Below, piece by piece: positions 17,309 through 43,454 of a stretch of 47,623 nt of DNA; positions within the stretch are counted from its first letter, which is position 1, and each line of letters starts with the position of its first letter. A program made the translations under genes and the position numbers. Source of the DNA: Escherichia phage TanjaMuster_Bas81. Below the pieces are notes generated by a model, which saw only the letters and a list, made by a program, of their open reading frames with translations, searched no databases and was not told the DNA's origin. The stretch is taken from sequence record PQ850630.1; one strand, given 5' to 3'.

Positions 17309-17683
17309 ATGAGCGATAAAGACATTGAGCAGGAAATCCAAGAAAAAGGATTGACAGCGCCACGCATCACTCTGCAGCACATTCAGTCACTCATTGATGG
17401 TGAATATTATTTTACGGCAGCAGACGGTGTGCAACAGTCGATGCACAAACAGGATGAGTTAACCAGACTCGTTGGCCCCCATAGAGAAATTGAATTTCTT
17501 ACCTTTTGTGTTTTGGTGTTGAAAAATGGCTTCACCGTCACAGGTGAAAGCGCATGTGCCAGCCCTGAGAATTTCGATGCTGAAATTGGTCGCAAGATTG
17601 CGCGCGAAAATGCGGTTAACAAAATTTGGATGCTGGAAGGATACCTACTTAAACAGCGTCTTTCGGAGGTGAATAATGGCTAA
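17309..17683 (+). CDS. hypothetical protein
   Basis: 124-aa track ORF, AGAGGT RBS. Confidence 0.55.
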   Translation: MSDKDIEQEIQEKGLTAPRITLQHIQSLIDGEYYFTAADGVQQSMHKQDELTRLVGPHREIEFLTFCVLVLKNGFTVTGESACASPENFDAEIGRKIARENAVNKIWMLEGYLLKQRLSEVNNG

Positions 17684-17875: not shown

Positions 17876-17901
17876 AAAACCCGCATTATGCGGGTTTTTT
17901 A
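17876..17901. terminator. bidirectional intrinsic terminator
   Basis: cccgc/gcggg stem flanked by A4 and T6. Confidence 0.75.
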
Positions 17902-17904
17902 TTG

Positions 17905-18441
17905 CTACAGACGCATCGGCATAACAACAATCTTCGCAGTCTCGCCAGATGGCGCACTAAGGCAGCAAACTGCGGCATTTGTATTTCCATTCAACTCAAA
18001 CTTAACGCCACAGAATTTAGGATTAAACAACTTAGCCACTTTCTCGATATCAACAAGGTAGCCAGCATTAAAGCCAATTTCCTCTGCTGCTTTAGTTTCT
18101 TTTGGTATCACGCGGTCAATATCAGGGAATCGACCATCAATCTCTTCGCAGATACCAGCTCCAACCATCACGCCAGCTTCATCATGATACGTTGAAATTT
18201 TCGACTTGGTATCAATGATGGCGTACTCATAACGTTTTGTTGGAGATTTGCCAATCTTGATAATCACCTTTTCTGTCAGCTTATTGTCATGGCTGCCGCC
18301 AATAAATGCGCGATGACCGTCAGTTGATGCGACGCGACCATCAGGCATGAAGCAGATGCCATTCAGGTAGTAACGCACATCGTTTTTCGCCTGAAATATC
18401 AACGCGCCTTCAAGTAATAATTTGCTGATTTTTAGTTTCAT
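17905..18441 (-). CDS. truncated DNA polymerase III beta-clamp (DnaN)-like protein
   Basis: 178 aa; motifs DVRYYLNG, TDGHR, DGRFPD..RVIPK, IGFNAGY and C-terminal IVVMPMRL resemble domain II/III of bacterial beta clamp as I recall E. coli DnaN (...YVVMPMRL); about half clamp length. Confidence 0.55.
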   Translation of the reverse strand: MKLKISKLLLEGALIFQAKNDVRYYLNGICFMPDGRVASTDGHRAFIGGSHDNKLTEKVIIKIGKSPTKRYEYAIIDTKSKISTYHDEAGVMVGAGICEEIDGRFPDIDRVIPKETKAAEEIGFNAGYLVDIEKVAKLFNPKFCGVKFELNGNTNAAVCCLSAPSGETAKIVVMPMRL

Positions 18442-18617
18442 CACTTCACCTTAATCATGTGTTGTTTTGCAACCTTCAGGCATTCTTCAAAAATGCCACC
18501 CTTCTTTGCGCTCTGATTGCGCCTGTAGTGGGTAATTGCGGCCTCTATGGCCGCGTTGTCGATGCCCGGCAGTTTGTCGCGCAGGTTTTTCTCGATGAAT
18601 TGTTCAGGAGTCATCAT
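18441..18617 (-). CDS. hypothetical protein (58 aa)
   Basis: manual translation MMTPEQFIEKNLRDKLPGIDNAAIEAAITHYRR...; start and stop overlap neighbours by 1 nt (TGATG). Confidence 0.4.
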   Translation of the reverse strand: MMTPEQFIEKNLRDKLPGIDNAAIEAAITHYRRNQSAKKGGIFEECLKVAKQHMIKVK

Positions 18618-18880
18618 CAATCACCATCATCGTGAAGGCTGTTGAGTTTGCCTCCGCAGAAAGGACAAAAATTAAGCAGAACTGGATTTTTATTTCCAGC
18701 TTGATAGGTGACTTTTTCACCCAATGATTCTCCTGTGGAAATTAGCACCGATTGCACAGAAACTAATCCTTTTGTGTTTTTATTTGCTGCACGCTGAAGG
18801 TATTCAGCGAGATGTGCGCAAATATTAGTTGCGTATCTTTTCCCTTCGCTTGCGCATGGAATTAATTTTTCGGTCATCAC
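18617..18880 (-). CDS. zinc-finger protein (C-terminal CPFCG motif)
   Basis: 87-aa track ORF with Cys..Cys...CPFCGGK. Confidence 0.5.
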   Translation of the reverse strand: MMTEKLIPCASEGKRYATNICAHLAEYLQRAANKNTKGLVSVQSVLISTGESLGEKVTYQAGNKNPVLLNFCPFCGGKLNSLHDDGD

Positions 18881-19686
18881 ATCTTCTCCAGAATAGCCAT
18901 AACTTCGTGAATATCAGCAACAGGGATCTGGATAAATTCCTCATCCTCTGCCACCACATGACCAGCAGGAAGAATCACATGGTCGGCTGGCTTCAATAAC
19001 TCAATCAAACGGTCTACTGGCTTAATCTTTTTCGACTTCAGCACCTTCGCAGTGACCTTATCCTTACCTTGCGCCTTCGCTTCTTCCACTGCCTCGTCGA
19101 TAAGTTTAACCGCATCATCACCATGCTCACGCGTTACTGCTACGGCATTTGCATAGCTGATTTGCCCGGCGCTGATGCGCGCCTTTACTTCCGCCGTAAC
19201 GTCACCAAGCGATAGGTGCATTTGCACGTCAGATACTGAGCGACCTACCTTTTTTGCTATTTCTTCATTAGTCCAGCCAAAGCCTTTCAGTCGCGTGTAA
19301 GCCTTTGCGCGTTCAAACGGGTCGAGCTTCTTGCCCTGACTTGATGACACCATAAAGGCGATTTTATCCGCCTCATCCCCTGTGAAATCCTTACACTCAA
19401 TACGAACGATTGGTGCTCCGCGCTCAATGGCTCGCAGTGCGCCGAGATAGCGATGCTGACCATCAAGAATGCGGATTCCCTTCTCGTCAGGAATAACTGT
19501 TAATGCTGGTAATGGTTGGCCTGACTCCCAGCACTGCGCGAAATATTCCACATGCTGCTCATCTGCTTCGCGGATGTTGTATCCCGGCTCCAGATAGATT
19601 TGCTCCACTGGCACGAGATAGGTTTTGTTAACAGCGATGCCGTTTCGCGTCTCTTTGTCTGAATAGATTTTGCTGAGTGTTTTCAT
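18877..19686 (-). CDS. ParB-like nuclease-domain (ParB/sulfiredoxin) protein
   Basis: ILDGQHRYLGA motif characteristic of ParB N-terminal domain; 269 aa. Confidence 0.65.
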   Translation of the reverse strand: MKTLSKIYSDKETRNGIAVNKTYLVPVEQIYLEPGYNIREADEQHVEYFAQCWESGQPLPALTVIPDEKGIRILDGQHRYLGALRAIERGAPIVRIECKDFTGDEADKIAFMVSSSQGKKLDPFERAKAYTRLKGFGWTNEEIAKKVGRSVSDVQMHLSLGDVTAEVKARISAGQISYANAVAVTREHGDDAVKLIDEAVEEAKAQGKDKVTAKVLKSKKIKPVDRLIELLKPADHVILPAGHVVAEDEEFIQIPVADIHEVMAILEKM

Positions 19687-19697
19687 TGTTTATCCTA

Positions 19698-20174
19698 TTA
19701 ATCAAAAATCCAATTTTCTGTTTCCGAGTTGTGACCGAGGTTGTAGCTAATAACAGGTTTTGATGTGTCTATTTTTTTTAATTCATCAACAACAGTTGTG
19801 ATTACGGCTATATCCTGTTTTAGTCGCATCAAGTGATATTTCTTTCTACGCAACAAGCTTTCAAGCGCTAGTTGCTGAGATTGAAACGCATAAGATCGTT
19901 CTGCTGACTTAGCAATTTTCTTGATTGCATATCTATTTTTCTTATCTTTCCACTCCGCAAGCCAGCGGGGAATATCACGTTCATGATTGTATACTTTGAA
20001 CCAGTGGGCTGGGGCTATCCATACATAGTACGCTGTCTGGTGAAAAGCAATGAACTGCTGAGAAATTATTTTGATACCGTCACTTTCGACTGTTTCAAAA
20101 TACTTCCAGTAAACAGGCATGCCGTTGAACTCTGTTTTAGCATCTGGAAATGGAACTGACCATGATTCACTCAT
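19698..20174 (-). CDS. hypothetical protein
   Basis: 158-aa track ORF, first gene of minus cassette. Confidence 0.55.
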   Translation of the reverse strand: MSESWSVPFPDAKTEFNGMPVYWKYFETVESDGIKIISQQFIAFHQTAYYVWIAPAHWFKVYNHERDIPRWLAEWKDKKNRYAIKKIAKSAERSYAFQSQQLALESLLRRKKYHLMRLKQDIAVITTVVDELKKIDTSKPVISYNLGHNSETENWIFD

Positions 20175-20216
20175 TTTTCATCACCTCTAACATTTATTGT
20201 TGTTTCTACGCCACCA

Positions 20217-20245
20217 ACTATAAACGCCGCACTAATCTACGTCAA
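20217..20245 (-). promoter_or_regulatory. sigma70-like promoter for minus-strand cassette (-35 TTGACG, 17-nt spacer, -10 TATAGT)
   Basis: rev-comp of 20240-20245 is TTGACG; rev-comp of 20217-20222 is TATAGT; 35-40 nt upstream of gene start 20174. Confidence 0.6.
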
Positions 20246-20262
20246 CAGGAATATGCTAAAAT
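20234..20262 (+). promoter_or_regulatory. extended -10 promoter (TGcTAAAAT) with AATCTACGTCA motif at -35 position; face-to-face with the minus-strand promoter
   Basis: motif 20234-20244, TG 20254-20255, TAAAAT 20257-20262. Confidence 0.5.
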
Positions 20263-20292
20263 CATGCTAATCAAACAACAGGGGATTTAAAC

Positions 20293-20412
20293 ATGGGTTC
20301 AACAAACGGTCCATCTCGTTCACGCGCTACTGGCAACACAAAAACTGGCGGCAAAACTGGCGCAGTGAAGCCAAACGGTTCTACCCGCTCACCGTCGCGC
20401 GGTAAAAAATAA
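20293..20412 (+). CDS. small basic Gly/Ser/Thr/Lys-rich peptide (39 aa)
   Basis: manual translation MGSTNGPSRSRATGNTKTGGKTGAVKPNGSTRSPSRGKK; TAATG overlap with next gene. Confidence 0.3.
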   Translation: MGSTNGPSRSRATGNTKTGGKTGAVKPNGSTRSPSRGKK

Positions 20413-41861: not shown

Positions 41862-43454
41862 TCACAACCCCCTCATAAATCTCATGCGCTTAACGGCAGC
41901 GGAAAGATAATTTCTAACCGTTGAGTTCATCCGCAGGCCATCCCATGAACCATCACTACACATCTTAATTGCTCTTGGATTATCCCTGTCCAGCATTAGT
42001 GGTGAATGTTTGTTCTCCTCAATGGCAAGAAGAACCTCATAAACAAACTTATCAGGTGTTAGTGTGATGTTATTAGAGTCAGCAGAATTGATTATCTTTT
42101 CAACTCTGTCACGGCACAGCTTGTTCTTTATAACAGACAAATAAGGCGTTTTAATGAATGCCTGTGATTCACAAATTCGCTTTATTTTTTCAACAATATT
42201 CGACCACTCAGTATTCTCAAGTCCATCAAATGCCTGTTCACCCTCAAGGAATCTTTTCAGCCCTGACAGGTGTTCAAGAACCGTGATATAACCCCACTCG
42301 ATATGCTCCATCGTCACTGATGGTGTCATTCCCTGCCGACTTGACAGATCGGTATACGCCGCCAGAGTTGCAAGATCGACAATCATTAGACCCATACGAG
42401 GGATAACATCACCAACAACACCATCGCAATCACCAAGCTCACTTTCCAGTTTCATAGACAGAGATCGGTGCAGTTTTTTAGCATTATCATCAGCCCATAC
42501 AACGTGAGTTTTCGCGGTAAGAACCCTACCTTTCCACTCATTGATTATTTTTCTTGAAAGCGTACCACTCACTTCCACATCCTTCATCGCTGGCATTTCC
42601 TCACCAGCAAGATGTCCAAGCTGGAACAGCACGCGCCCCATACCGCCATCTTTCTGCCATGAACGCGCAGCATCTATTCCCTGCTCTGGTGTGACAGTAA
42701 TCAGCGGAACAAATTTTGCGTTTTCAATTCCACCTTCTTTTGTTGCAATTTCGTACTCATTCATTGCCGACTTTAGTGCTCTCCCAACGCTGTGGTCCAT
42801 CATCGCAAGACGCTTATAATCTATGACTCCTTTCCCGTCATCTCCACCAGTAAGTGGCACTATCCATCCCTCTGCGCTTGCTGCCGCCATGATGCGTTTT
42901 GGGTTTTGTTCCCACGTAAGGTTTTCAAGCAACTCCTTTATTATTGGTCTATTAGGAACCCACACGCCGCCATCAGTTAGGGCTCTATACCACGCCATAG
43001 TGCCGCCAAGATATGCATTGCGCGGGTTGTTCCAGTCTTCAAGATGTTGCTTGTCATCGTTCACAACGTAGAGCAAAGACCCACCTCCGGCAATCAGGTC
43101 TAACTGCATCTGTTTCGTCGATGTTGATTTGGATGCGCAAACTCTGGACCCTATTCCCAGCGCATTGGCATACGCCCTGACGAAACTCACCGGTGCACCC
43201 TTACCTGCACCAGAGCGAGCCACGAGAAATATTCCAGTATTGCAGATACTACCTGTTGGACCAATCAAGTATCGTCCAGCCATCGCCTGAGCAAGACCCA
43301 ACGCGCCAGTTAAACGATATCTTCCCCCTCCCTCACGGCGCTCAAACCCCCTTGCGATCTCATCCATAAACTCACCAAGTGCCCCGGGAGCATCCCGCTT
43401 TATGCCCATAGCCAGAGACTCAAAATCAATCGAACTCATCAATACACCCTCCAT
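41862..43454 (-). CDS. putative replication protein with P-loop NTPase motif (helicase/initiator candidate)
   Basis: 530 aa; Walker A-like GIFLVARSGAGKGAP; located in replication module; family not confidently recognised. Confidence 0.35.
   Translation of the reverse strand: MEGVLMSSIDFESLAMGIKRDAPGALGEFMDEIARGFERREGGGRYRLTGALGLAQAMAGRYLIGPTGSICNTGIFLVARSGAGKGAPVSFVRAYANALGIGSRVCASKSTSTKQMQLDLIAGGGSLLYVVNDDKQHLEDWNNPRNAYLGGTMAWYRALTDGGVWVPNRPIIKELLENLTWEQNPKRIMAAASAEGWIVPLTGGDDGKGVIDYKRLAMMDHSVGRALKSAMNEYEIATKEGGIENAKFVPLITVTPEQGIDAARSWQKDGGMGRVLFQLGHLAGEEMPAMKDVEVSGTLSRKIINEWKGRVLTAKTHVVWADDNAKKLHRSLSMKLESELGDCDGVVGDVIPRMGLMIVDLATLAAYTDLSSRQGMTPSVTMEHIEWGYITVLEHLSGLKRFLEGEQAFDGLENTEWSNIVEKIKRICESQAFIKTPYLSVIKNKLCRDRVEKIINSADSNNITLTPDKFVYEVLLAIEENKHSPLMLDRDNPRAIKMCSDGSWDGLRMNSTVRNYLSAAVKRMRFMRGL

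What the first reader, a model, noticed from the sequence alone, without database searches (positions are those of the whole stretch)
17905..20262. Opposite-strand cassette encoding a half-length beta-clamp (DnaN) homolog, a ParB-like protein and zinc-finger proteins, inserted between capsid and neck genes
Five minus-strand genes (19698..20174, ParB-like 18877..19686, Zn-finger 18617..18880, 58-aa ORF 18441..18617, clamp-like 17905..18441) are chained by 1-4 nt stop/start overlaps. They have their own near-consensus promoter (TTGACG-17-TATAGT, 20217-20245) and a strong terminator (17876-17901), and they interrupt an otherwise plus-strand structural operon. The 178-aa product carries DVRYYLNG, TDGHR, DGRFPD..RVIPK, IGFNAGY and ends in IVVMPMRL, which I recall as hallmarks of domains II/III of the bacterial sliding clamp, but it is about half the size of a bacterial clamp monomer and lacks domain I. 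A truncated clamp could be a decoy or hijacker of host Pol III, or a clamp for a phage process; co-transcription with a ParB-fold protein is unusual and suggests a functional unit.
Basis: partly seen in the sequence, partly recalled or inferred. Interest (0 to 1): 0.8.

Follow-up and report, generated by a model that had tools for sequence, protein, structure and literature searches.

The report
Phage mini β-clamp keeping only the binding cleft
A Skate-like Salmonella/E. coli phage carries a half-length copy of the bacterial DNA sliding clamp that has lost the parts needed to form a ring but keeps, almost residue for residue, the groove where polymerases and repair proteins dock; it is common in phages, uncharacterised, and dispensable in the laboratory.

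Summary
The cassette is real: five minus-strand genes (17905-20174) with a conserved sigma-70-type promoter and a bidirectional terminator, between the capsid and tail genes of a Skatevirus-like phage. The 178-aa product is a true DnaN homologue (E=2e-12 to solved clamps; AlphaFold pLDDT 97; Foldseek best hits E. coli beta). It consists of domain II (minus one helix) plus only the C-terminal half of domain III. Domain I and residues ~253-312 are gone, and with them both sides of the beta dimer interface. 16 of the 18 residues of the clamp-binding-motif cleft are identical to host DnaN, against 34% identity elsewhere, and they are 92-99% conserved across 133 diverse short homologues. This is a widespread phage family, usually labelled "DNA pol III beta" or, wrongly, "RusA-like resolvase". 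Deposited genome-reduced seszw mutants show the gene can be deleted, whereas the ParB-like neighbour is always kept. The pairing with ParB is specific to this lineage (not seen around the gene in 21 lineages), so the "functional unit" idea is not supported. Best reading: a cleft module that does not form a beta-type ring and binds clamp-client proteins. Whether it acts as sponge, adaptor or inhibitor is unresolved.

The parts
17876..17898 (.). Bidirectional intrinsic terminator (AAAACCCGCATTATGCGGGTTTT) that ends both the plus-strand capsid operon and the minus-strand cassette
   Evidence: 10-bp stem, 5 GC pairs, T-runs on both strands. The same feature is annotated as two terminators in Skate.
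17905..18441 (-). 178-aa short beta-clamp homologue: DnaN domain II (second helix replaced by a loop) plus the C-terminal half of domain III, with an intact clamp-binding-motif cleft
   Evidence: phmmer against PDB E=2e-12; PHROG 3007 E=6.6e-63; AF2 pLDDT 97.4, pTM 0.91; Foldseek best hits E. coli beta, probability 1.0, TM 0.66; cleft residues 16/18 identical.
18441..18617 (-). 58-aa protein of unknown function, translationally coupled to the clamp-like gene
   Evidence: phrog_4439 E=3.6e-22. Deleted together with the clamp gene in seszw mutants. Homologues lie directly next to the clamp gene in 3 of 21 lineages, once in flipped order.
18617..18880 (-). 87-aa protein with one CxxC (possible zinc ribbon); a variable slot that holds a DNA methyltransferase in Bas77 and is empty in Skate and seszw
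   Evidence: phrog_4030 E=9e-16. Only sub-threshold Pfam hits (DUF6980 0.021, Zn_ribbon_Nudix 0.075). No PDB relatives. Slot contents.
18877..19686 (-). 269-aa ParB/Spo0J/KorB-like DNA-binding protein (ParB N-terminal domain plus HTH) with degenerate nucleotide-binding boxes
   Evidence: PF17762 HTH_ParB 42 bits (cut-off 22.6) and KorB; phrog_1033 E=5.6e-90; Spo0J 1vz0 E=1.5e-11 with GERRxRA aligned to GQHRYLG and ENLQRE to SSSQGK. Retained in all 70 seszw-lineage genomes.
19698..20174 (-). 158-aa first gene of the cassette, unknown function, no cysteines; a variable slot that holds anti-restriction or other genes in relatives
   Evidence: phrog_1636 E=1.2e-70. No significant Pfam, NCBIfam or PDB hit. 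Relatives carry different first genes.
20175..20245 (-). Conserved expression signal: sigma-70-type promoter TTGACG-17-TATAGT (20245-20217), leader and AGAGGTGA RBS
   Evidence: 10/12 match. Nearly invariant in four phages.

Best explanation
The 178-aa protein is a phage derivative of the bacterial beta sliding clamp, cut down to the elements that build the groove where clamp-binding motifs (CBMs) dock: domain II, the interdomain linker and the C-terminal beta-alpha-beta-beta-beta half of domain III. It cannot make the canonical head-to-tail beta ring, because domain I and residues ~253-312, which carry both sides of that interface, are absent. It most likely works as a soluble cleft module, possibly a homodimer joined through its half-domain. 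[quoted passage not shown] Shown: homology, fold, architecture, selective conservation of the cleft, wide distribution, usual position in early replication modules, dispensability in the laboratory. Inferred: that the cleft binds CBM peptides, the oligomeric state, and the direction of the effect. My split within this reading: a competitor or 'sponge' for accessory clamp clients ~0.25, an adaptor that brings host replisome parts to phage proteins or DNA ~0.15, an inhibitor of host clamp loading or replication ~0.15. The ParB-like gene is a separate and more important function of the same early cassette, probably a KorB/Noc-type DNA-binding regulator.
For: Homology and fold: E=2e-12 to E. coli and Enterobacter beta over residues 136-289 plus 315-366. 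A family profile matches Salmonella DnaN at 3e-34. AF2 pLDDT 97.4, pTM 0.91. Foldseek best hits are all beta clamps. Cleft: 16 of the 18 cleft residues listed in PMC11139829 are identical to Salmonella DnaN, against 43/126 elsewhere, Fisher p=1e-5. Across 133 representatives (each from a different 50%-identity cluster): R152 98%, G174 99%, P242 98%, M362 97%, and L155, T172, H175, Y323 and P363 92% each. 9 of the 14 most conserved columns are cleft residues. Architecture: the P242-to-N320 spacing is 19-27 aa in every member, against 79 in DnaN, and domain I is always absent. The interface residues I78, F106, I272, L273, K74, R96, R103, R105 and E298-304 all lie in deleted regions. Precedent: a monomeric beta variant keeps its cleft, binds delta about 50-fold tighter than the ring, and cannot support processive synthesis (PMC11139829). 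Accessory status: about 26 of 68 deposited seszw genome-reduction clones lack the gene, confirmed in two. Context: early replication modules in 21 lineages, with helicases, primase-helicases, lambda P and methyltransferases nearby, and between cII and O/P in lambdoid phages. The gene occurs with and without a phage polymerase.
Against: No binding experiment exists and I could not inspect model coordinates, so the geometry of the cleft is inferred from sequence and from a global fold match (TM 0.66, rmsd ~5.8 A). Cleft residues are also the most conserved part of bacterial DnaN, and a real ring clamp would keep them too. The loop equivalent to DnaN residues 148-154, which I recall contacts DNA in the ring (not checked here), is also conserved, and the family is basic (median pI 8.2, against 5.3 for DnaN). 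Both fit a DNA-bound role. An indiscriminate cleft decoy would also titrate Pol III and the clamp loader, which this polymerase-less phage needs. No phage protein with a credible conserved CBM was found. Dispensability in rich laboratory culture says little about the mechanism.
Confidence: 0.55

Rival explanations
1. It is a real sliding clamp. Several copies (for example four, at about 90 degrees each) assemble through non-canonical interfaces into a ring that the host clamp loader puts onto phage DNA, where it tethers host Pol III or a phage polymerase.
For: A clamp needs the cleft both to be loaded and to bind a polymerase, and the cleft is conserved. The loop equivalent to DnaN 148-154 is conserved, and the protein is basic. 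The tandem two-copy AF2 model has pTM 0.76, whereas one rigid copy could give at most ~0.46, and strands 121-125 and 145-151 lengthen, which suggests self-association through edge strands as in clamp interfaces. Many annotators call it a clamp or processivity factor.
Against: Both sides of the beta interface are deleted. One of the three channel-lining helices expected for 1.5 domains is replaced by a loop. The two-copy model does not rebuild a beta-like crescent (TM 0.32-0.34, rmsd ~21 A). The phage has no clamp loader. The gene is deletable. It occurs with quite different replicases: none, family A, family B.
Confidence: 0.2
2. The clamp-like protein and the ParB-like protein form one functional unit, for example a clamp-like partner for a ParB/KorB-type DNA slider.
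For: They are co-transcribed and partly translationally coupled in this genus. A ParB-like gene lies ~2 kb from the clamp-like gene in Pseudomonas phage TC7.
Against: No ParB domain is among the 25 commonest Pfam families in 120 neighbours from 21 lineages, and none among the recurrent BLAST families. The gene is alone in Dhillonvirus and far from ParB in Vibrio R20L. The seszw mutants delete genes 16-17 and keep gene 18 in all 70 genomes. Variable genes such as methyltransferases are inserted between the two.
Confidence: 0.08
3. The cleft and the basic surface bind nucleic acid rather than proteins: the protein is an ssDNA or primer-template binder, or a recombination accessory factor.
For: ssDNA of a primed template occupies the beta cleft in a crystal and competes with a Pol III peptide (PMC11139829). 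The family has a basic pI. Neighbours often include PD-(D/E)XK and VRR-NUC nucleases, SSB and annealing proteins.
Against: Conservation covers both subsites in full, including the Gln-binding subsite II residues N320, Y323, M362-R365, which is what protein CBM recognition needs. No nuclease or resolvase motif or fold is present: there is no RusA Pfam hit and the fold is a clamp.
Confidence: 0.1
4. It is a RusA-like Holliday junction resolvase, as RefSeq/PHROG-derived annotations say.
For: The best PHROG (3007) carries that name, and many NC_ records repeat it.
Against: No RusA family hit in Pfam or NCBIfam. Sequence and fold are plainly those of DnaN. The second-best PHROG is 'DNA polymerase processivity factor'. 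The label is an annotation error.
Confidence: 0.01

Closest known systems
Bacterial DnaN (beta sliding clamp of Pol III), e.g. E. coli 2POL/1MMI
   Same: Homologous sequence and fold over domain II and the C-terminal half of domain III. 16 of 18 clamp-binding-motif cleft residues are identical, and the DVRYYLNG loop and the C-terminal VVMPMRL are kept.
   Different: 178 aa against 366 aa. It lacks domain I, residues ~253-312 and the second helix of domain II, so both halves of the dimer interface are missing. It is basic rather than acidic, and it scores far below the curated family cut-offs.
Monomeric beta variant I272A/L273A (engineered)
   Same: A beta protein that carries the cleft but cannot close a ring. 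It still binds DNA and binds the clamp-loader delta subunit ~50-fold tighter than the ring does (PMC11139829). This is the best functional analogy for what a cleft-only protein can do.
   Different: Engineered, full length with three domains. The phage protein is a natural family with half the mass that has been conserved for a long time.
E. coli beta* (short DnaN made from an internal start, domains II-III; from my own knowledge of Skaliter/Paz-Elizur/Livneh 1996; I could not retrieve it here)
   Same: A naturally produced N-terminally truncated clamp lacking domain I.
   Different: Beta* keeps the whole of domain III (about 26 kDa) and was reported to act as a clamp. The phage protein also lacks half of domain III and one helix, and it is a separate gene family.
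Full-length phage-encoded beta clamps (345-395 aa) and T4 gp45-type clamps
   Same: Phage-borne members of the clamp fold.
   Different: They are complete ring-forming clamps, usually paired with a phage polymerase and loader. The short family (163-250 aa) forms a separate structural class, with TM 0.8-0.88 among its members.
Phage factors that act on the host clamp: Twort Gp168 (blocks the DNA channel) and Mu MuC (uses beta for late transcription)
   Same: Both show that the host clamp is a target or tool of phages (PMC11139829; PMC12867686).
   Different: Those proteins bind the host clamp. This one is derived from the clamp and would instead compete for, or recruit, the clamp's clients.

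Membership tests
DnaN / beta sliding clamp (TIGR00663; Pfam PF00712+PF02767+PF02768) | Sequence and fold homology to DnaN | tested here: met
   phmmer E=2e-12 to 6amq/1mmi; Foldseek probability 1.0, TM 0.66.
DnaN / beta sliding clamp (TIGR00663; Pfam PF00712+PF02767+PF02768) | Three-domain monomer of ~366 aa that scores above the curated cut-offs | tested here: not met
   178 aa. TIGR00663 35.4 bits against a cut-off of 137.65. PF02767 15.3 and PF02768 15.6 against 27, and no PF00712 hit. P242-N320 spacing is 20 aa against 79.
DnaN / beta sliding clamp (TIGR00663; Pfam PF00712+PF02767+PF02768) | Hydrophobic cleft that binds clamp-binding motifs (subsites I and II) | tested here: met
   At the sequence level only: 16/18 residues identical, and 92-99% conserved in the family. 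Peptide binding itself cannot be tested with these tools.
DnaN / beta sliding clamp (TIGR00663; Pfam PF00712+PF02767+PF02768) | Head-to-tail dimer interface (I78/F106 against I272/L273; K74, R96, R103, R105 against E298-E304) | tested here: not met
   All of these residues (list from PMC11139829) lie in regions absent from the protein.
DnaN / beta sliding clamp (TIGR00663; Pfam PF00712+PF02767+PF02768) | Closed ring that encircles DNA and confers processivity | tested here: inconclusive
   The tandem AF2 model predicts self-association (pTM 0.76) but not a beta-like arc (TM 0.33).
Short phage clamp-like family (PHROG 3007; BFVD cluster of 163-250 aa) | Full-length match to the family profile and to its fold | tested here: met
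   PHROG 3007 E=6.6e-63 over 1-178. BFVD TM 0.80-0.88 in both directions. More than 100 clusters of 160-220 aa at 50% identity.
RusA Holliday junction resolvase | RusA domain or fold | tested here: not met
   No RusA hit in Pfam at E<=1 or in NCBIfam. The fold is a clamp.
ParB/Spo0J partition proteins (for the 269-aa neighbour) | ParB N-terminal domain plus HTH | tested here: met
   PF17762 at 42 bits (cut-off 22.6). Spo0J 1vz0 E=1.5e-11 over residues 40-202. TIGR00180 is below its cut-off (34.6 against 58.45).
ParB/Spo0J partition proteins (for the 269-aa neighbour) | Intact CTP-binding boxes (GERRxRA, ENLQRE; motif definitions from my own knowledge) | tested here: not met
   They align to GQHRYLG and SSSQGK. 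PF02195 gave no hit at E<=1.
ParB/Spo0J partition proteins (for the 269-aa neighbour) | Partner ParA ATPase and parS centromere | tested here: not met
   No ParA is annotated in Bas77, Skate or seszw. I did not search for parS. I saw no integrase or plasmid-maintenance gene.
Zinc-ribbon / zinc-finger proteins (87-aa and 158-aa ORFs) | Four metal ligands in a knuckle arrangement and a significant family match | tested here: inconclusive
   87 aa: C8, C20 and C71xxC74, with only sub-threshold hits (E 0.02-0.08). 158 aa: no cysteine, and zf-H2C2 at E=0.27 is noise, so the feature is not met for that protein.

The most novel reading that the evidence does not exclude
Phages of many lineages carry a dedicated 'clamp-client sponge': a minimal, non-ring (possibly dimeric, two-cleft) copy of the beta-clamp docking groove. 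It would soak up accessory clamp-binding proteins, such as the translesion polymerases Pol II/IV/V that flood the cell during SOS and prophage induction, Hda, or MutS/L. That would keep host Pol III and beta2 free for fast, accurate phage replication, or alternatively trap the clamp loader to shut down the host. This would be a new class of host-takeover protein that works by molecular mimicry of a hub protein's binding site.
Probability: 0.25. Interest if true: 0.8.

Novelty: new variant of a known kind. Interest (0 to 1): 0.58.

Why it matters
The beta clamp is the central hub of bacterial replication and repair, and its cleft is an antibiotic target. If this reading is right, a natural, stable 20-kDa protein that keeps that cleft without the ring would give a new way for phages to rewire the host replisome. 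It would also be a ready-made tool: a soluble cleft domain for screening, or an in-cell competitor of clamp clients. And it would fill in a gene that hundreds of phage genomes currently label either 'DNA polymerase III beta' or, wrongly, 'RusA-like resolvase'. Deletion mutants already exist (the seszw genome-reduction clones), so the hypothesis can be tested at once.

Tried and rejected
(1) Phage-encoded partner with a clamp-binding motif. A regex scan of the window's proteome gave 6 hits, with ~8 expected by chance. The ParB-like QMHLSL lies in the HTH recognition helix. QMQLDL in the 530-aa protein lies between Walker A and Walker B of a P-loop core and is not conserved. Both rejected.
(2) A neighbour with an extreme C-terminal QIDMLF/QIDMHF motif in L034 and L038 looked like a partner but is lambda-type CII (PF05269), so the adjacency is lambdoid gene order. 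Kept only as a curiosity.
(3) Whether two copies rebuild a three-domain beta crescent. The tandem AF2 model is confident but does not superpose on DnaN, so a head-to-tail mimic is rejected. A head-to-head dimer could not be tested without coordinates.
(4) A link to phages that lack a polymerase: rejected.
(5) A link to ParB: rejected as a general rule.
(6) A defence-system identity: PADLOC gave nothing relevant.
(7) Supplementary tables of the seszw paper are not held, so I inferred dispensability from the deposited mutant genomes instead.
(8) The search for related loci with the full 133-sequence alignment failed because it was too diverse; a 14-sequence alignment worked.
(9) Literature searches for any functional study of the short clamp, and for a citable source on E. 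coli beta*, found none.
Full report
WHAT IS THERE. The window is a near-complete genome of a Skatevirus-like siphophage. The cassette region and the first 25 kb are ~90% identical over about 70% of their length to Salmonella phages NX263, Skate and seszw, Shigella phage Sf11 and the E. coli BASEL phages Bas77-79. The five minus-strand ORFs exist exactly as described: 19698-20174 (158 aa), 18877-19686 (269 aa), 18617-18880 (87 aa), 18441-18617 (58 aa) and 17905-18441 (178 aa). Three junctions are 1-4 nt overlaps; the first junction is an 11-nt gap with an RBS. The consensus scan finds TTGACG-17-TATAGT at 20245-20217 as the best site and a 10-bp stem-loop at 17876-17898 that terminates both strands. 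The promoter, leader and RBS are nearly invariant in four phages even though the first gene differs, so this is a conserved early expression unit with swappable slots. The cassette sits at the same place, between the major capsid gene and the neck/tail genes, in Skate, seszw and Bas77. The genus has several other minus-strand islands in its structural region. It is therefore a standing feature of the genus and not a private insertion.

THE CLAMP-LIKE PROTEIN. Curated models score it below threshold (Pfam PF02767/PF02768 ~15 bits against 27; TIGR00663 35 bits against 138). Direct comparison is clear, however: E=2e-12 to solved beta clamps, and a profile of the short family matches Salmonella DnaN at 3e-34. 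AlphaFold gives pLDDT 97.4 and pTM 0.91, and every top Foldseek hit in the PDB is a beta clamp (probability 1.0, TM 0.66).

The alignments show that residues 1-~118 correspond to DnaN 130-252 (domain II plus the interdomain linker) and residues ~119-178 to DnaN 313-366 (the last beta-alpha-beta-beta-beta unit of domain III). The second helix of domain II (E. coli ~197-208) is replaced by a 9-residue loop. Domain I and DnaN ~253-312 are missing. According to the clamp review PMC11139829, the beta dimer is held by I78/F106 packing on I272/L273 and by salt bridges from K74, R96, R103 and R105 to E298-E304. Every one of these residues lies in a deleted region, so the canonical ring interface is lost on both sides.

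THE KEY OBSERVATION. The review lists subsite I as R152, L155, T172, G174, H175, R176, L177, P242, R246, V247, V360 and M362, and subsite II as H175, N320, Y323, V344, M362, P363, M364 and R365. Sixteen of these 18 residues are identical between the phage protein and Salmonella DnaN, against 34% identity over the other aligned positions (Fisher p=1e-5).

In 133 short homologues, each from a different 50%-identity cluster, R152, G174, P242 and M362 are 97-99% conserved, and L155, T172, H175, Y323 and P363 are 92%. Nine of the 14 most conserved columns are cleft residues. The truncation is a family character: the P242-N320 spacing is 19-27 aa in all members (79 in DnaN), and all of them lack domain I. 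The family is basic (median pI 8.2; DnaN 5.3).

HOW COMMON, AND WHAT IS KNOWN. An exhaustive search finds 2005 representatives at E<=1e-3. Nearly all of the best 150 are 160-220 aa, and full-length DnaN first appears at ~2e-12. tblastn finds the gene in 294 phage records from Salmonella, Escherichia, Vibrio, Klebsiella, Pseudomonas, Burkholderia, Acinetobacter, Xanthomonas and other hosts. BFVD holds many 163-250-aa phage proteins with the same fold (TM 0.80-0.88), distinct from full-length phage clamps of 345-395 aa. Annotations call it 'DNA polymerase III beta subunit', 'DNA polymerase' or, through PHROG 3007, 'RusA-like Holliday junction resolvase'. The last label is an error: there is no RusA signal. 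I found no functional study. Genome papers only repeat the label.

GENETIC EVIDENCE FROM DEPOSITED GENOMES. The CRISPR genome-reduction study of Skatevirus seszw (PMC9825161) deposited its mutants. The ParB-like gene is present at >=99% identity in 70 seszw-lineage records, but the clamp-like gene in only 47, five of which are other phages. So about 26 of 68 clones lack it. I confirmed that clones 290S (36.0 kb) and 260L (37.4 kb) lack genes 16 (clamp-like) and 17 (the 58-aa gene) and keep 18 (ParB-like) and 19. The only lesion seen in the ParB-like gene is an in-frame 45-bp deletion. The clamp-like gene is therefore accessory for lytic growth in the laboratory. The ParB-like gene behaves as important.

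CONTEXT. This phage encodes SSB, a Sak4/AAA_24-type ATPase, a PD-(D/E)XK exonuclease, an SF2 helicase, a primase and a 530-aa P-loop protein, but no DNA polymerase. The gene is not restricted to such phages, though. Dhillonvirus carries it as a lone opposite-strand gene in its structural module and has its own Pol I. Acinetobacter phage Loki lists it beside a family-B polymerase. A temperate Vibrio myovirus has it near a Dam methylase and SSB.

In 80 IMG/VR loci that collapse to 21 lineages, no neighbour family occurs in more than 5 lineages. By Pfam, the commonest neighbours are C5 methyltransferases (5), SF2 helicases (4), DUF5906/DUF3987 primase-helicases (3 and 2) and lambda P (2). No ParB domain is among the 25 commonest families. 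In lambdoid phages the gene sits between cII and O/P. The ParB pairing is thus a Skatevirus-group feature and not a general unit. The 58-aa gene is adjacent to the clamp gene in 3 of 21 lineages, once in flipped order, which is only a weak hint of partnership.

OLIGOMERIC STATE. A tandem two-copy construct with a 30-residue Gly/Ser linker and a paired 24-sequence alignment gave pTM 0.76, with only the linker disordered. Strands 121-125 and 145-151 were longer than in the monomer model. One rigid copy alone could account for a TM of at most ~0.46, so AlphaFold is placing the two copies confidently, probably through the exposed edge strands of the half-domain. The assembly does not superpose on a DnaN chain (TM 0.32-0.34, rmsd ~21 A), so it is not a head-to-tail rebuild of the beta crescent. 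A two-fold head-to-head dimer with two clefts would fit, but I could not inspect coordinates. This step is inference from a surrogate for multimer modelling.

MECHANISM. The best-supported reading (0.55) is a cleft module without a beta-type ring that acts by binding clamp-binding motifs. The engineered monomeric beta (I272A/L273A) shows what such a protein can do: it keeps the cleft, binds the clamp-loader delta subunit ~50-fold tighter than the ring, still touches DNA, and cannot confer processivity. Whether the phage protein works as a sponge for accessory clients, as an adaptor, or as an inhibitor of host clamp loading is not resolved. The last option sits awkwardly with this phage's dependence on host Pol III. 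The main rival (0.2) is a non-canonical oligomeric ring. The ParB-clamp unit (0.08), a nucleic-acid-binding role (0.1) and the RusA label (0.01) are less likely.

THE OTHER CASSETTE GENES. The 269-aa protein is a ParB/Spo0J/KorB-family DNA binder (PF17762 above threshold; Spo0J E=1.5e-11). Its nucleotide-binding boxes are degenerate (GQHRYLG, SSSQGK), no ParA is annotated in relatives, and I saw no integrase or plasmid-maintenance gene, so it is not a classical partition protein. A KorB/Noc-like regulatory role is an inference. The 87-aa ORF may be a zinc ribbon but is unconfirmed. The 158-aa ORF has no cysteine and no relatives of known function.

VERDICT. The 'decoy/hijacker' idea is strengthened, the 'ParB unit' idea is weakened, and the gene is common rather than exceptional. 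It is a new structural variant of a known family, uncharacterised and directly testable.

Noticed in passing
window 17905-18441, and RefSeq records such as NC_054639, NC_054642, NC_031918: PHROG 3007 is named 'RusA-like Holliday junction resolvase', and the name has spread into many RefSeq and Pharokka-style annotations of this gene. The protein is a DnaN-derived clamp fold with no RusA signal.
   Followed up: yes
window 18877-19686: The ParB-like gene is kept in all 70 seszw-lineage genomes, including the 36-kb minimal mutant; the only change seen is an in-frame 45-bp deletion. It behaves as an important gene even though its CTP-binding boxes are degenerate and there is no ParA.
   Followed up: partly
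window 17309-17683 (+): A 124-aa Phage_gp49_66 (PF13876, E=9.5e-35) gene sits between the major capsid gene and the 65-aa ORF. Skate, seszw and Bas77 have no gene at this spot, so it is a lineage-specific moron. A near-identical copy turned up in IMG/VR locus L025.
   Followed up: partly
L034 2471-2818; L038 3828-4169; L040, L042 and L059 4699-4992: CII proteins (PF05269) encoded just upstream of the short clamp gene in lambdoid phages end in QIDMLF, QIDMHF or QITINF. The first two fit the hexameric clamp-binding pattern Q-phi-x-[L/M]-x-[F/L] at the extreme C-terminus, and QITINF comes close (Ile at position 4). Lambda CII itself, as I remember it, ends QIQMEF. This is probably coincidence with the flexible degradation tail, but I did not test it.
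   Followed up: partly
window 18617-18880, and the same slot in Bas77 (L002 17676-18473), ZCEC08, ST1UNAM and S192: The slot between the 58-aa gene and the ParB-like gene is variable. It holds an 87-aa CxxC protein here, a DNA methyltransferase in several sister phages, and nothing in Skate or seszw. C5 methyltransferases are also the commonest Pfam neighbour of the short clamp across lineages (5 of 21). I did not test this for enrichment.
   Followed up: partly
window 41862-43454 (-): A 530-aa protein left unannotated in relatives is a P-loop NTPase (Walker A RSGAGKG, Walker B-like LLYVVNDD) with a weak match to the C-terminal part of a 'DNA primase' PHROG. It is probably the replicative helicase or primase-associated ATPase of this phage group.
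   Followed up: partly
window 22809-22978 (-): Two adjacent minus-strand tRNA genes, tRNA-Arg(tct) and tRNA-Ser(gct), lie inside the tail-gene region. Skate has a tRNA-Ile annotated at the equivalent place.
   Followed up: no
window 20175-20411: The ~240-bp divergent intergenic region between the cassette and the downstream plus-strand genes is almost invariant among the three relatives aligned across it (the Skate excerpt covered only the promoter-proximal half), well beyond the promoter itself. This suggests further regulatory elements, such as a late promoter or operator sites.
   Followed up: no
family alignment A1 (members such as those with 'IILPRAVVEAACKAAKA'): Some distant members of the short family appear to keep the second helix of domain II that this protein has lost, so the family is structurally heterogeneous in that segment: the H175-P242 spacing ranges from 50 to 98 aa.
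   Followed up: no
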